DNA of 64,000 nt from Escherichia coli (GTDB taxonomy: Bacteria; Pseudomonadota; Gammaproteobacteria; Enterobacterales; Enterobacteriaceae). Shown one piece after another: positions 4,691 through 61,610 of this stretch. A program made the position numbers and the translations under genes. Each line of letters starts with the position of its first letter. The first letter of the stretch is position 1. The notes under the pieces were generated by a model. It made no database searches, was not told the origin of the DNA, and saw nothing but the letters and a program-made list of their open reading frames with translations. The stretch lies in the NCBI RefSeq assembly GCF_003790525.1, contig NZ_CP033635.1. The stretch is one strand, 5' to 3'.

Positions 4691-4767
4691 TGGCGGAACG
4701 GACGGGACTCGAACCCGCGACCCCCTGCGTGACAGGCAGGTATTCTAACCGACTGAACTACCGCTCC
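4691..4767 (-). tRNA. aspV: tRNA-Asp (GUC)
   Basis: Reverse complement reads GGAGCGGTAGTTCAGTCGGTTAGAATACCTGCCTGTCACGCAGGGGGTCGCGGGTTCGAGTCCCGTCCGTTCCGCCA, including CCA end. Confidence 0.97.
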
Positions 4768-12911: not shown

Positions 12912-12988
12912 TGGCGGAACGGACGGGACTCGAACCCGCGACCCCCTGCGTGACAGGCAGGTATTCTAACCGACTGAACTACCGCTCC
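12912..12988 (-). tRNA. aspU: tRNA-Asp (GUC), distal tRNA of rrnH operon
   Basis: Same tRNA-Asp sequence as at 4691-4767, located immediately downstream of the 5S rRNA. Confidence 0.97.
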
Positions 12989-13040: not shown

Positions 13041-13160
13041 ATGCCTGGCAGTTCCCTACTCTCGCATGGGGAGACCCCACACTACCATCGGCGCTACGGC
13101 GTTTCACTTCTGAGTTCGGCATGGGGTCAGGTGGGACCACCGCGCTAAGGCCGCCAGGCA
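13041..13160 (-). rRNA. rrfH: 5S ribosomal RNA
   Basis: Reverse complement matches E. coli 5S rRNA (TGCCTGGCGGCC...GGGAACTGCCAGGCAT), 120 nt. Confidence 0.95.
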
Positions 13161-13252
13161 AATTCTGTTTCATCAGACCGCTTCTGCGTTCTGATTTAAT
13201 CTGTATCAGGCTGAAAATCTTCTCTCTTCCGCCAAAACATCTTCGGCGTTGT

Positions 13253-16156
<2,904 letters not shown>

Positions 16157-16330
16157 TCACAACCCGAAGATGTTTCACTTCAGAGTTGCGAAAATTTGAG
16201 AGACTCACGAACAACTTTCATTGTTCAGTGTTTCAATTTTCAGCTTGATCCAGATTTTTAAAGAGCAAAACTTCGCAGTGAACCTTTGCAGGTACACTCT
16301 GAAGTATTTTTTATTTAATCACTACAGAGA

Positions 16331-16406
16331 TGGTGGAGCTATGCGGGATCGAACCGCAGACCTCCTGCGTGCAAAGCAGGCGCTCTCCCAGCTGAGCTAT
16401 AGCCCC
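16331..16406 (-). tRNA. alaV: tRNA-Ala (UGC), 16S-23S spacer
   Basis: Reverse complement GGGGCTATAGCTCAGCTGGGAGAGCGCCTGCTTTGCACGCAGGAGGTCTGCGGTTCGATCCCGCATAGCTCCACCA. Confidence 0.97.
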
Positions 16407-16448
16407 ATAACATGTAGTTAAAACCTCTTCAAATTTGCGATGCAAATT

Positions 16449-16525
<77 letters not shown>

Positions 16526-16593
16526 GTAGAGGTTTTACTGCTCATTTTCATCAGACAATCTGTGTGAGCACTGCAAAGCACAGTTCTTTAAGG

Positions 16594-18135
<1,542 letters not shown>

Positions 18136-58538: not shown

Positions 58539-59963
58539 TTACTGCATTAACAGGTAGATGGTGCTGTCGCCGCGCTGAATGTTCAGTGCCAGCACAGACG
58601 GTTTGCTGTCGAGAACTTTACGCAGTTCAGCGATGTTTTTCACTGCCTGCTGGTTCGCGCCAATAATCACATCACCTTTCTTCAGGCCGATCTGCGCAGC
58701 CGGAGTGCCCGTTTTCACGTTGTTCACCACCACGCCCTGATCTTTGCCTTTGTTACTCATCTCAGCGCCTTCAATGCCGTTGAAGATGGTGCTGGAATCA
58801 ACCTGATTCTGGCTGCTCTGCTGAAGTTCCAGGTTCACGTTAACCTGCTTCCCGTCGCGCAGTAAGCCCAGGGTCAGTTTGCTACCTACCGGCATAGTGC
58901 CCACCTGAGCACGCAGTGCGGCAAAGCTGCTGATTGGCTTACCGTTCAGTGAGGTGATCACATCACCCGCTTTAATGCCCGCTTTCGCGGCGGAAGAATT
59001 CGGCAGAACCTGGCTTACGAAAGCACCGCGCTGGGCGTCAACTTTCATCGCTTTCGCCAGATCGGAGTTCAGCTCAGTGCCCATAATACCCAACTCACCG
59101 CGTTTCACCTGGCCGTATTCCACCATCTGCGAGGTCAGGTTTTTCACCATGTTGCTCGGGATAGCAAAACCGATACCGATGTTGCCGCCGTCCGGTGCGA
59201 GGATCGCGGTGTTGATACCGATCAGTTCACCGTTCAGGTTAACCAGCGCACCACCGGAGTTACCACGGTTAATCGCTGCATCGGTCTGGATGAAGTTTTC
59301 GTAGTTTTCGGCATTCAGGCCGCTACGCCCCAGCGCAGAGACAATCCCGGAAGTTACCGTCTCGCCCAGACCAAACGGGTTACCAATCGCTACGGTGTAA
59401 TCACCCACGCGCAGTGCATCAGAATCCGCCATCTTAATTGCGGTCAGGTTTTTCGGGTTCTGGATCTGGATCAGCGCGATATCAGAGCGCGGATCTTTGC
59501 CAACCATCTTCGCGTCGAACTTACGGCCATCGCTCAGTTGGACTTTAATCACCGTCGCGTTATCAACAACGTGGTTGTTGGTGACGACATAGCCTTTATC
59601 GGCATCAATGATGACGCCGGAACCCAGCGCCATGAATTTCTGTTGCTGGCCGCCACCATTACCGCCCTGGCCACCCTGGCAGAACGGAGAACTCTGGAAC
59701 GGAGAACCTTCCTGGCAGAACGGAGAATCATCACCGAAGAACTGCTGGAAATTACGCGGCATACGCGGCGTATTAACGGTTGTGCTACCTTCTACGTTAA
59801 TGCTGACCACTGAAGGCATCACCTTTTCGAGCATCGGTGCAAGGCTTGGCATCTGCTGGGCTGTCGTTGCTGAAGAAGTCTCAGCCGCCGTTGCAGAGAG
59901 CGGAGATAACGCCAAACCTAAACTCAGAGCCAGTGCACTCAGTGCTAATGTGGTTTTTTTCAT
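58539..59963 (-). CDS. degP: Periplasmic serine endoprotease/chaperone DegP (HtrA), 474 aa
   Basis: ORF translation MKKTTLALSALALSLGLALSPLSATAAETSS...; catalytic GNSGGAL, two PDZ domains. Confidence 0.96.
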   Translation of the reverse strand: MKKTTLALSALALSLGLALSPLSATAAETSSATTAQQMPSLAPMLEKVMPSVVSINVEGSTTVNTPRMPRNFQQFFGDDSPFCQEGSPFQSSPFCQGGQGGNGGGQQQKFMALGSGVIIDADKGYVVTNNHVVDNATVIKVQLSDGRKFDAKMVGKDPRSDIALIQIQNPKNLTAIKMADSDALRVGDYTVAIGNPFGLGETVTSGIVSALGRSGLNAENYENFIQTDAAINRGNSGGALVNLNGELIGINTAILAPDGGNIGIGFAIPSNMVKNLTSQMVEYGQVKRGELGIMGTELNSDLAKAMKVDAQRGAFVSQVLPNSSAAKAGIKAGDVITSLNGKPISSFAALRAQVGTMPVGSKLTLGLLRDGKQVNVNLELQQSSQNQVDSSTIFNGIEGAEMSNKGKDQGVVVNNVKTGTPAAQIGLKKGDVIIGANQQAVKNIAELRKVLDSKPSVLALNIQRGDSTIYLLMQ

Positions 59964-60006
59964 GTATTTCAGTCTCGATTAACAGATAACGCAAAATTGC
60001 TGTGTT

Positions 60007-60036
60007 CTTCAGATTCGTTTTATAGCGCGAAGTTCC
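60007..60036 (-). promoter_or_regulatory. Sigma-E (RpoE) promoter of degP: -35 GGAACTT, 16-bp spacer, -10 TCTGA
   Basis: Minus strand reads cGGAACTTcgcgctataaaacgaaTCTGAag about 45-75 nt upstream of the degP start; matches sigma-E consensus. Confidence 0.65.
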
Positions 60037-60092
60037 GAACTAAAGTTTCTGCAAAAGGTAAAAATTTATTGTTCGTCTTTACAAAAGCCTGG

Positions 60093-61610
60093 TTATTGTT
60101 CTACGGCCATCAGACGTCGGTATTCATCCCAGGCATAGAGGTCGGTCATACCGCTGATATAATCCTGCAGCAGGCGGCAACGGTAATAATATTCCCATAG
60201 CGGAAACTCAGGAGAATCTGACGGTAATTTACTGACAGCCTCGACATAGGCCAGCCGATGGCGCGTCGAGAGTTTGTGGAATAAGCGCGATTCAATAGGG
60301 AAACGTTTCACCCGTTCTTTTTCTACCAGTTCAGTAAAGTCTGATAACGACAGGCTTAATAAAGGGCGATAAATCTCTAATAATCCGCTAATGACCCGAT
60401 AGCCCTGCAATTCAAGCTGCTCGACATCTGGATGGCTAAACACATGTTTTACAGCGACATTTTTATAAAGCTTAAGAAGATCGCTGCATTCGCTGGCATC
60501 TTCCAATAATGCATGATTAAACGTTCCGGCGAAAATCGCAGGCAGATTATCAATAAATCGTTGTGCCGCGTAGGGTACCAGTTTATTTAGAGTGTTTACC
60601 CTTAAATACATAAAAAACTGATCTTCCGTACTGCGGCTTAAACTATTTGAGCGTGATTTTTCCCAGGCATTTTCAACCACCAGCGAAAAGAGCGAACCTT
60701 TCTCATGCTGGCCCCACGCTTCGTGCAAATGATGATAAAGCTGCTCAACGGTAAATATTCTTTTCTCTACCGCATCTTCAAGATCTGCCACACAATAGGA
60801 GATGTCGTCGGCAGCTTCCATAATCCACGTTAATGGAAAACGACTGTAAAGCGCCAAATTAAGTTCTTTACGCAACCGGGCAATATAGGCTTCCTCAGAA
60901 AGATAATAACCCGGCTTTTTCATTAAATAGTGATGTGTCTCAGGCGTTTCGCCACGCCACCACGCCGGACGGGTATATTTTAAAATACCGCCAACCTGTG
61001 CCCAGGTGAGATTCATCCGCATCAATGTATGCACCAAACGAATACCCTGTGCGTTACCTTCAAAATGACATAAGTCCTGACGTATTTTGCGCCGCAGCTC
61101 GTTAAGCGGTTCTTCCCCGTCCCGTAAACGTAGTGCTGCCACGCTGCAGCGATCGTCAGTCAGAGGCTGGCTTTCGGCATCTTCCGGGTGCAAACGCTGG
61201 CGAAACCAGTCATTTATCGCCGCTTCGCCAAAATGACCAAACGGCGGATTGCCGATATCGTGCATAAGGCATGACATCTCAACAATGCTTTCAAAGGGGC
61301 CGGTCAGTTCATCCAGGCCGTATGCTTCCAGCAATTTAAGCTCTTTCAGACGGCTTAAAATTTCTTTGGCGATGTAGCGCCCCACCTGCTGGACTTCCAT
61401 CGAGTGGGTAAGACGCGTGCGCACGGCGGCATTGCGCTCCAGTGGAAAAACCTGGGTCTTTTGTTGCAGACGACGAATTGCCGGAGAGTTGATGATACGC
61501 CCGCGATCGCTCTCGAAGATCCGCAGGATCTCATGTTCGGTTTTAACGCCCTGTGGTGAACGGTAACGACGATGCCAGTTTATTTTTTTTCGGAAATCAA
61601 TCTGTGCCAT
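60093..61610 (-). CDS. dgt: Deoxyguanosinetriphosphate triphosphohydrolase, 505 aa
   Basis: ORF translation [42 protein letters not shown]...; HD domain. Confidence 0.94.

What the first reader, a model, noticed from the sequence alone, without database searches (positions are those of the whole stretch)
59964..60092. Near-consensus sigma-E promoter upstream of degP
The minus strand reads GGAACTT-N16-TCTGA at the expected distance from the degP start, matching the envelope-stress sigma-E consensus. GTAAA-like motifs further upstream could be CpxR boxes. This is readable directly from the sequence and consistent with known degP regulation.
Basis: partly seen in the sequence, partly recalled or inferred. 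Interest (0 to 1): 0.25.

Follow-up and report, generated by a model that had tools for sequence, protein, structure and literature searches.

The report
Known sigma-E promoter of degP
This is the long-known envelope-stress (sigma-E, CpxR-assisted) promoter in front of the E. coli protease gene degP, correctly read by the first stage and ordinary, although the same 129-base gap also holds a known RNA thermometer and a probable second, nested start site.

Summary
On the minus strand GGAACTT (60036..60030), 16 nt, TCTGA (60013..60009) lies in the 129-bp dgt-degP gap. It is the only such match in the window, against 0 in 100 shuffles.

The window is E. coli chromosome. This gap differs from K-12 MG1655 by two bases, both in the promoter spacer.

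Published 5'-triphosphate-enriched start-site maps of MG1655 place a start at 180844, which is window 60003. That is an A, 5 nt after TCTGA and 26 nt after GGAACTT, giving a 40-nt leader.

In 80 Enterobacteriaceae species the -35, the -10 and the 16-nt spacing are conserved well above the neutral level. An upstream block, GTAAA-N5-ACAAT-N5-TTTAC (60082..60058), is also conserved. It contains a site listed among known CpxR binding sites.

Two things were missed. The 40-nt leader is the Rfam HtrA RNA thermometer (77 bits). A second primary 5' end at 60010 lies inside TCTGA, so it needs another -10, probably the conserved TATAAA in the spacer.

Verdict: already known, low interest.

The parts
60058..60082 (-). 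Conserved upstream activator block GTAAA-GACGA-ACAAT-AAATT-TTTAC. It contains the listed CpxR site 'degP1', GTAAAGACGAACAAT (60082..60068), at -79..-65 from the sigma-E start. An inverted GTAAA (TTTAC, 60062..60058) lies 20 bp away centre to centre.
   Evidence: The site is listed among known CpxR sites and its position was found. Mean majority fraction is 0.93 in 80 species, against 0.63-0.69 for neutral-like positions. GTAAAGA, CAAT and TTTAC are invariant or nearly so.
60030..60036 (-). Sigma-E -35 element GGAACTT.
   Evidence: for the sequence; consensus GGAACTT. In 80 species it is GGAACTT in 62, GGAACTA in 13 and TGAACTT in 5, with GAACT invariant.
60014..60029 (-). 16-nt spacer (cgcgctataaaacgaa). 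It differs from K-12 (caggctataaaacgaa) at two bases.
   Evidence: for the two differences. Spacer length is 16 in 77 of 80 species and 17 in 3. The sequence has 36 variants, so the length rather than the sequence is kept, except for TATAAA.
60019..60024 (-). TATAAA inside the sigma-E spacer. It is the candidate -10 hexamer of a nested sigma-70/sigma-S-type promoter (P2). This assignment is inferred.
   Evidence: Exact TATAAA in 61 of 80 species, mean majority fraction 0.91 against 0.73-0.79 for the rest of the spacer. It lies 8 nt upstream of the second mapped start at 60010.
60009..60013 (-). Sigma-E -10 element TCTGA.
   Evidence: TCTGA in 67 of 80 species, TCTTA in 7 and TCTCA in 3. It matches the TCAAA core at 3 of 5 positions.
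60003..60003 (-). Sigma-E transcription start (A), equal to MG1655 180844; 40-nt leader.
   Evidence: 5'-triphosphate-enriched start-site maps. The first base of the Rfam HtrA thermometer match also falls here. Salmonella has a stress-induced 40-nt leader.
60010..60010 (-). Second primary 5' end (G inside TCTGA), equal to MG1655 180837; 47-nt leader.
   Evidence: Found in stationary phase only, 28 reads. Klebsiella has a start at the same G of TCTG with 25 reads. Salmonella has a 47-nt leader.
59958..60003 (-). HtrA 5'-UTR RNA thermometer (fourU type). UUUU at 59996..59993 pairs with the Shine-Dalgarno GAGA at 59976..59973.
   Evidence: Rfam RF02700, 77 bits against a gathering score of 52, full-length model. 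Published Salmonella SHAPE work. The fold is weak, as expected for such an element: -3 kcal/mol, z = +1.0.
58539..59963 (-). degP coding sequence (474 aa).
   Evidence: NCBIfam NF008189 DegP equivalog, 935.5 bits against a cut-off of 720. RefSeq annotation.
60093..61610 (-). dgt coding sequence (505 aa), same strand as degP. No terminator-like site lies between it and degP.
   Evidence: NCBIfam NF003429 dGTPase, 896 bits. Terminator scan found 0 sites.
60218..60232 (-). Distal listed CpxR site 'degP2', GTAAATTACCGTCAG, inside the dgt coding sequence.
   Evidence: Listed in Table S1 of PMC9600279 with a matrix score of 12.74. Position found.

Best explanation
The interval is the regulatory region of E. 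coli degP (htrA). RNA polymerase carrying the envelope-stress sigma factor sigma-E (RpoE) recognises GGAACTT (-35) and TCTGA (-10), 16 nt apart, and starts at the A at 60003. That start yields a 40-nt leader. Phosphorylated CpxR binds the conserved GTAAA-containing block centred about 70 bp upstream of the start and raises transcription, so degP integrates the sigma-E and Cpx envelope-stress pathways. The 40-nt leader is itself a fourU RNA thermometer that masks the ribosome-binding site at low temperature. What is shown here: the motifs, their uniqueness in the window, their conservation, and their agreement with published mapped starts. What comes from the literature: sigma-E dependence and CpxR dependence. 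What is inferred: how CpxR contacts polymerase, and which of the two nearby starts it acts on.
For: The motif is present and unique, with 0 of 100 shuffles matching. The flanking genes are degP and dgt. The gap differs from K-12 at two spacer bases only. The mapped primary start at MG1655 180844 equals window 60003, and the printed upstream sequence ends ...GGAACTTCAGGCTATAAAACGAATCTGAAGAACA. The method enriches 5'-triphosphate ends. The geometry matches the published sigma-E rules: GGAACTT and TCAAA cores, 16-nt spacer preferred, 5/6-nt discriminator, 25-28 nt from -35 to +1, purine start. Sigma-24 ChIP-chip binding is assigned to this transcription unit. Sigma-E overproduction induces degP 56-fold. 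degP is in the 60-promoter sigma-E library. [quoted passage not shown] Footprinting across 80 species gives majority fractions of 0.97 for the -35, 0.94 for the -10 and 0.93 for the CpxR block, against 0.63-0.69 for neutral-like positions, with spacer length 16 in 77 of 80. The thermometer scores 77 bits in Rfam and its 5' end coincides with the mapped start.
Against: The -10 TCTGA matches the present-day TCAAA core at only 3 of 5 positions. The CpxR site has one canonical half-site and a low matrix score (7.77). CpxR overproduction alone did not induce degP in one study. The start-site read counts are low, 13-28. The classical primer-extension, in vitro transcription and footprint papers (Lipinska 1988; Erickson and Gross 1989; Danese 1995; Pogliano 1997) were not readable in the held library. 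Direct biochemical evidence is therefore cited only through later papers and from general knowledge.
Confidence: 0.95

Rival explanations
1. Two overlapping promoters share the region. Besides the sigma-E promoter, a sigma-70 or sigma-S holoenzyme uses the conserved (C)TATAAA in the sigma-E spacer as its -10 and has no recognisable -35. It starts at the G at 60010, 7 nt upstream of the sigma-E start, and gives a 47-nt leader. CpxR bound at 60082..60058 (-72..-48 from this start) may act mainly on this promoter. This extends the main explanation rather than replacing it.
For: A second 5'-triphosphate-enriched start at MG1655 180837 equals window 60010. It was seen only in stationary phase, and sigma-38 as well as sigma-24 ChIP binding was recorded at the region. 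It lies inside TCTGA and only 19 nt from GGAACTT, outside the 25-28 nt sigma-E range, so it cannot come from the sigma-E elements. Klebsiella pneumoniae starts at the same G of TCTG with 25 reads, against 11 for the downstream start. Salmonella has a 47-nt leader beside the 40-nt one, reported as constitutive. TATAAA is exact in 61 of 80 species although the rest of the spacer varies.
Against: No -35 match was found, and the simple sigma-70 scan reports nothing in the gap on this strand. Read counts are low. The source paper itself assigned both starts to sigma-E. The 8-nt distance from TATAAA to the start is at the long end of what is usual. TATAAA conservation could have another cause, such as spacer A/T content aiding melting. 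No experiment in E. coli assigning this start to a sigma factor was found.
Confidence: 0.45
2. The GTAAA-containing block is not a CpxR site. It would instead be an A/T-rich UP-like element or the site of another regulator.
For: Only one canonical GTAAA half-site lies in direct-repeat register and the published matrix score is low. The block is A/T-rich and lies where distal alpha-subunit contacts are discussed for sigma-E promoters. The two invariant GTAAA pentamers are inverted rather than direct, which is unusual for an OmpR-family dimer.
Against: The site is listed as a known CpxR binding site. degP is strongly Cpx-induced. The invariance of specific bases (GTAAAGA, CAAT, TTTAC) across 80 species goes beyond A/T richness.
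Confidence: 0.07
3. The hexamers are a chance match with no function.
For: Loose sigma-E-like patterns are as common in the window as in shuffled sequence, 7 against 8.1.
Against: The strict pattern matched in 0 of 100 shuffles. The mapped start is at the right distance. The elements are deeply conserved. Sigma-24 ChIP binding and sigma-E induction are recorded.
Confidence: 0.01

Closest known systems
E. coli K-12 degP (htrA) sigma-E promoter, one of the two founding sigma-E promoters together with rpoH P3
   Same: Same locus and same elements. The -35, the -10, the spacing, the start region, the CpxR block and the leader are identical. The mapped start at 180844 corresponds to 60003.
   Different: Two substitutions in the spacer (CGCG here, CAGG in K-12). 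The window's gap sequence is found at 99% identity or more in 4034 of 5424 complete E. coli genomes, while the remaining 1390, which include K-12, are 95-99% identical.
Salmonella enterica htrA regulatory region (htrAp1, p2, p3) with the fourU htrA RNA thermometer
   Same: 40-nt and 47-nt leaders correspond to the two starts here. The thermometer hairpin and the fourU/Shine-Dalgarno pairing are conserved.
   Different: The far-upstream start within dgt (215- or 449-nt leader) has not been checked for E. coli here. HtrA is tied to virulence in Salmonella and to growth at high temperature in E. coli.
CpxR boxes of the cpxP/cpxRA promoter (GTAAA-N5-GTAAA)
   Same: A canonical GTAAA pentamer with a second element 10 bp downstream, upstream of the core promoter.
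   Different: The second half-site here is degenerate (ACAAT). A second invariant GTAAA lies in inverted orientation 20 bp away, giving a symmetric block rather than a simple direct repeat.

Membership tests
Sigma-E (RpoE, ECF) dependent promoter | -35 core GGAACTT | tested here: met
   7/7 match at 60036..60030. GAACT is invariant in 80 species.
Sigma-E (RpoE, ECF) dependent promoter | -10 core TCAAA-like | tested here: met
   TCTGA at 60013..60009 matches T, C and the final A, 3 of 5. The same pentamer is kept in 67 of 80 species. It is weaker than consensus.
Sigma-E (RpoE, ECF) dependent promoter | Spacer of 15-19 nt (16 preferred), discriminator of 5/6 nt, 25-28 nt from -35 to +1, purine start | tested here: met
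   Spacer 16, discriminator 5, 26 nt from -35 to +1, and an A start at 60003 using the published mapped start. The spacer is 16 nt in 77 of 80 species.
Sigma-E (RpoE, ECF) dependent promoter | Transcription depends on sigma-E holoenzyme | not testable with these tools
   Literature only: 56-fold induction by sigma-E, sigma-24 ChIP binding, membership of the sigma-E promoter library.
CpxR-activated promoter (CpxR box GTAAA-N5-GTAAA) | Two direct GTAAA-like pentamers 5-6 nt apart | tested here: inconclusive
   In GTAAA-GACGA-ACAAT the first pentamer is perfect and the second matches 2 of 5. The published matrix score is 7.77, among more than 10,000 genome-wide hits.
CpxR-activated promoter (CpxR box GTAAA-N5-GTAAA) | Site conserved upstream of orthologous genes | tested here: met
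   Mean majority fraction of the block is 0.93 against a 0.63-0.69 baseline in 80 species.
CpxR-activated promoter (CpxR box GTAAA-N5-GTAAA) | CpxR~P binds the site and Cpx activation raises transcription | not testable with these tools
HtrA 5'-UTR RNA thermometer (Rfam RF02700, fourU type) | Match to the covariance model above the gathering score | tested here: met
   77 bits against 52, model positions 1-46, at 59958..60003.
HtrA 5'-UTR RNA thermometer (Rfam RF02700, fourU type) | [quoted passage not shown] | tested here: met
   UUUUG pairs with CGAGA both in the Rfam structure and in the minimum-energy fold, at -3 kcal/mol.
HtrA 5'-UTR RNA thermometer (Rfam RF02700, fourU type) | Temperature-dependent opening and translation | not testable with these tools
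   Shown for the Salmonella sequence by SHAPE and reporter assays.
Sigma-70/sigma-S-type promoter (proposed nested P2) | -10 hexamer close to TATAAT at the right distance from a mapped start | tested here: met
   TATAAA (5/6) at 60024..60019, 8 nt upstream of the start at 60010.
Sigma-70/sigma-S-type promoter (proposed nested P2) | -35 hexamer close to TTGACA, 16-18 nt upstream | tested here: not met
   The candidates AACTTT, ACTTTA and AAACTT match 0-1 of 6. The scan reports no sigma-70-like site on this strand in the gap.

The most novel reading that the evidence does not exclude
The degP control region holds a second promoter nested inside the sigma-E promoter. Its -10 would be the TATAAA kept within the sigma-E spacer in 61 of 80 enterobacterial species. 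It would start at the G inside TCTGA (60010) and be read by sigma-S or sigma-70 holoenzyme, possibly as the real target of CpxR activation. That could bear on how Cpx activation relates to the sigma-E promoter. The genome-scale study that recorded this start in E. coli assigned it to sigma-E, which the geometry does not allow.
Probability: 0.45. Interest if true: 0.3.

Novelty: already known. Interest (0 to 1): 0.1.

Why it matters
degP transcription is a standard read-out of envelope stress, so the finding mainly serves as a positive control: a tool-free reader located a real, mapped promoter. The modest added value is an annotated anatomy of the 129-bp gap. It now contains the CpxR block, the sigma-E core promoter, a nested second start and an RNA thermometer. 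There is also a concrete, cheap test of whether CpxR works through sigma-E or through a nested sigma-70/sigma-S promoter.

Tried and rejected
- **Primary papers.** Reading the primary mapping and biochemistry papers failed. PMC338836 (Lipinska 1988), PMC2786571, PMC2840333 and PMC4288677 are not held.
- **Rhodius 2006.** Its tables and supplements are not held as text.
- **Full-text sequence search.** Searches for the promoter sequence found no paper.
- **Name search.** Searches for degPp or htrAp2 naming found nothing relevant.
- **Loose sigma-E scan.** A loose consensus scan of the window was not enriched over shuffles (7 against 8.1). It cannot be used to call other sigma-E promoters here. 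The hit at 44868..44841 is within chance expectation.
- **Sigma-70 and terminator scan.** The simple scan found no promoter on the degP strand and no dgt terminator in the gap.
- **Leader fold.** Thermodynamic folding of the leader gave no signal above shuffles (z = +1.0). The thermometer was recognised only by the covariance model.
- **Upstream GAAACTT.** A GAAACTT at 60049..60043 was considered as an alternative sigma-E -35 for the 60010 start. It was rejected because no TCNNA lies 15-17 nt downstream and the distance to the start (32 nt) is out of range.
- **Not attempted.** A true weight-matrix scan with the published sigma-E matrices was not possible because the matrices are not available in the held text.

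Full report
**What is at the coordinates**

The interval 59964..60092 is exactly the gap between two minus-strand genes. The ORF at 58539..59963 is DegP (NCBIfam equivalog NF008189, 935.5 bits against a cut-off of 720). The ORF at 60093..61610 is the dGTPase Dgt, and cdaR follows degP.

A 501-bp stretch around the gap is at least 99% identical to 5422 of 5426 complete E. coli genomes, where it is annotated dgt | degP. The window is therefore E. coli chromosome, reverse-complemented relative to MG1655. Window position w corresponds to MG1655 position 240847 - w in this region.

**The observation**

On the minus strand, GGAACTT lies at 60036..60030 and TCTGA at 60013..60009, with a 16-nt spacer between them. 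The strict pattern occurs once in the window and in none of 100 dinucleotide-preserving shuffles. A relaxed pattern is not enriched (7 hits against 8.1 expected), so only the strict match carries weight.

Against MG1655 the gap differs at two bases, both in the spacer: CGCG here and CAGG in K-12. The window's gap sequence is at least 99% identical in 4034 of 5424 genomes; the remaining 1390, which include K-12, are 95-99% identical.

Two published start-site maps of MG1655 used terminator-exonuclease enrichment of 5'-triphosphate ends.

- Kim et al. 2012 list a degP start at 180844 with a 40-nt leader. They print the upstream sequence ...GGAACTTCAGGCTATAAAACGAATCTGAAGAACA.
- Cho et al. 2014 list the same start in exponential phase and on glutamine, and record sigma-24 ChIP-chip binding for this transcription unit.

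Position 180844 is window 60003. It is an A, 5 nt after TCTGA, with 26 nt between GGAACTT and the start. Rhodius et al. 2006 give the following rules for 28 mapped sigma-E promoters: cores GGAACTT and TCAAA, a 16-nt spacer strongly preferred, a 5/6-nt discriminator, 25-28 nt from -35 to +1, and a purine start. The geometry fits in every respect.

The -10 itself matches the TCAAA core at 3 of 5 positions. 'Near-consensus' is therefore accurate for the -35 and the spacing and generous for the -10.

Functional evidence comes from the literature:

- degP is the gene most strongly induced by sigma-E overproduction, 56-fold.
- degP belongs to the 60-promoter sigma-E library.

**Conservation**

A scan of one genome per species returned 80 enterobacterial degP loci from genera including Escherichia, Citrobacter, Salmonella, Enterobacter, Klebsiella, Kosakonia, Buttiauxella, Mangrovibacter and Shimwellia. 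I aligned 238 nt upstream of the start codon for 79 of them plus the window.

The neutral-like baseline is a majority fraction of 0.69 for third codon positions of the dgt 3' end and 0.63 for the first 10 nt after the dgt stop. Against this baseline:

| Element | Majority fraction | Detail |
|---|---|---|
| -35 | 0.97 | GGAACTT in 62, GGAACTA in 13, TGAACTT in 5 |
| -10 | 0.94 | TCTGA in 67 |
| Discriminator | 0.74 | variable |
| CpxR block 60082..60058 | 0.93 | GTAAAGA, CAAT and TTTAC invariant or nearly so |

Spacer length is 16 nt in 77 of 80 species, although the spacer sequence has 36 variants. This is the pattern expected of a working promoter.

**CpxR**

The compiled list of 41 known CpxR sites in Table S1 of PMC9600279 contains two degP sites. 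'degP1', GTAAAGACGAACAAT, lies at 60082..60068, which is -79..-65 from the sigma-E start. 'degP2', GTAAATTACCGTCAG, lies at 60232..60218 inside dgt.

By sequence alone degP1 is weak. It has one canonical half-site and a published matrix score of 7.77, among more than 10,000 genome-wide matches. Conservation tells more.

The conserved block has a symmetric form, GTAAA-N5-ACAAT-N5-TTTAC. The two outer pentamers are inverted and lie 20 bp apart centre to centre. Whether this reflects two CpxR dimers sharing the central element is inferred, not shown.

Cpx dependence is from the literature. degP rises 26.6-fold in cpxA24 and 32-fold with pNlpE. CpxR overproduction alone did not induce it in another study, whose authors attributed this to limiting sigma-E.

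1. The leader is a known RNA element. Rfam RF02700 (HtrA 5'-UTR thermometer) matches 59958..60003 at 77 bits against a gathering score of 52, over the full model. Its first base coincides with the mapped sigma-E start.
   - The fourU stretch (59996..59993) pairs with the Shine-Dalgarno GAGA (59976..59973).
   - The hairpin is weak (-3 kcal/mol, z = +1.0), as reported for the Salmonella element studied by SHAPE.
   - The model passes the gathering score in 7 of 20 other genera tested.
2. There is a second primary 5' end at MG1655 180837, which is window 60010. It was seen only in stationary phase (28 reads), and sigma-38 ChIP binding was recorded at the region alongside sigma-24.
   - This G lies inside TCTGA and only 19 nt from GGAACTT, so the sigma-E elements cannot produce it. 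The source nevertheless assigned it to sigma-E.
   - Klebsiella pneumoniae has a start at the same G of TCTG (25 reads), plus a downstream one (11 reads).
   - Salmonella has a 47-nt leader beside the stress-induced 40-nt one.
   - The sigma-E spacer contains a TATAAA (60024..60019) that is exact in 61 of 80 species, while the rest of the spacer drifts (0.91 against 0.73-0.79).
   - I therefore consider a nested sigma-70/sigma-S-type promoter plausible, at about 0.45. Arguments against it: no -35 match, low read counts, an 8-nt distance from hexamer to start, and no E. coli experiment found that assigns this start.

**Comparison with what is known**

This is the K-12 degP/htrA promoter itself, one of the two founding sigma-E promoters. 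That last point is established knowledge from Lipinska 1988 and Erickson and Gross 1989, which are cited but were not readable here. The CpxR input and the RNA thermometer are also described. Nothing in the window departs from the known system except two neutral-looking spacer substitutions.

**Verdict**

The feature is already known and interest is low. The only open thread is the nested second start and its relation to CpxR.

Noticed in passing
window 59958..60003 (-): Rfam RF02700 HtrA 5'-UTR RNA thermometer, 77 bits against a gathering score of 52. Its 5' end coincides with the sigma-E start. The fourU stretch at 59996..59993 pairs with the Shine-Dalgarno sequence at 59976..59973.
   Followed up: yes
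window 60010 and 60019..60024 (-): A second published primary 5' end (MG1655 180837, stationary phase) lies inside the sigma-E -10. A conserved TATAAA in the sigma-E spacer could be its -10. The same start position is reported in Klebsiella, and a 47-nt leader in Salmonella.
   Followed up: partly
window 59998..60005 (-): ACACAGCA is invariant in 10 genera, even where 6 nt are inserted between TCTGA and it (Klebsiella, Kosakonia, Mangrovibacter, Shimwellia, Franconibacter). Start-site selection alone does not explain its conservation. These bases are unpaired in the Rfam thermometer structure.
   Followed up: no
window 60218..60232 (-): A second listed CpxR site (degP2, GTAAATTACCGTCAG) lies inside the dgt coding sequence. 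It would sit roughly 40-55 bp upstream of a start equivalent to the Salmonella 215-nt-leader promoter (about 60178), if E. coli has one.
   Followed up: no
window 60025..60029 (-): The window's gap sequence, which carries CGCG in the spacer where K-12 has CAGG, is at least 99% identical in 4034 of 5424 complete E. coli genomes. The remaining 1390, which include K-12, are 95-99% identical over the 129-bp gap.
   Followed up: partly
hit H15, NZ_AP027854.1: In this E. coli strain the match begins exactly at the dgt stop codon and the record has two places. This suggests an insertion or rearrangement at the boundary between dgt and the gap. Three matches of the region are on records labelled plasmid.
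   Followed up: no
window 44841..44868 (-): GGAACTA-N16-TCGAA, a loose sigma-E-like match about 540 bp upstream of rseP by coordinate mapping (within cdsA). The number of such loose matches in the window is no higher than chance.
   Followed up: no
window 13043..18135 (-), 51749..51835 (-): A complete rRNA operon (5S, 23S, 16S) with spacer tRNAs and the StyR-44 element. There are also further tRNAs at 4694..4767 and 12915..12988, and the t44 (tff) RNA upstream of rpsB.
   Followed up: no
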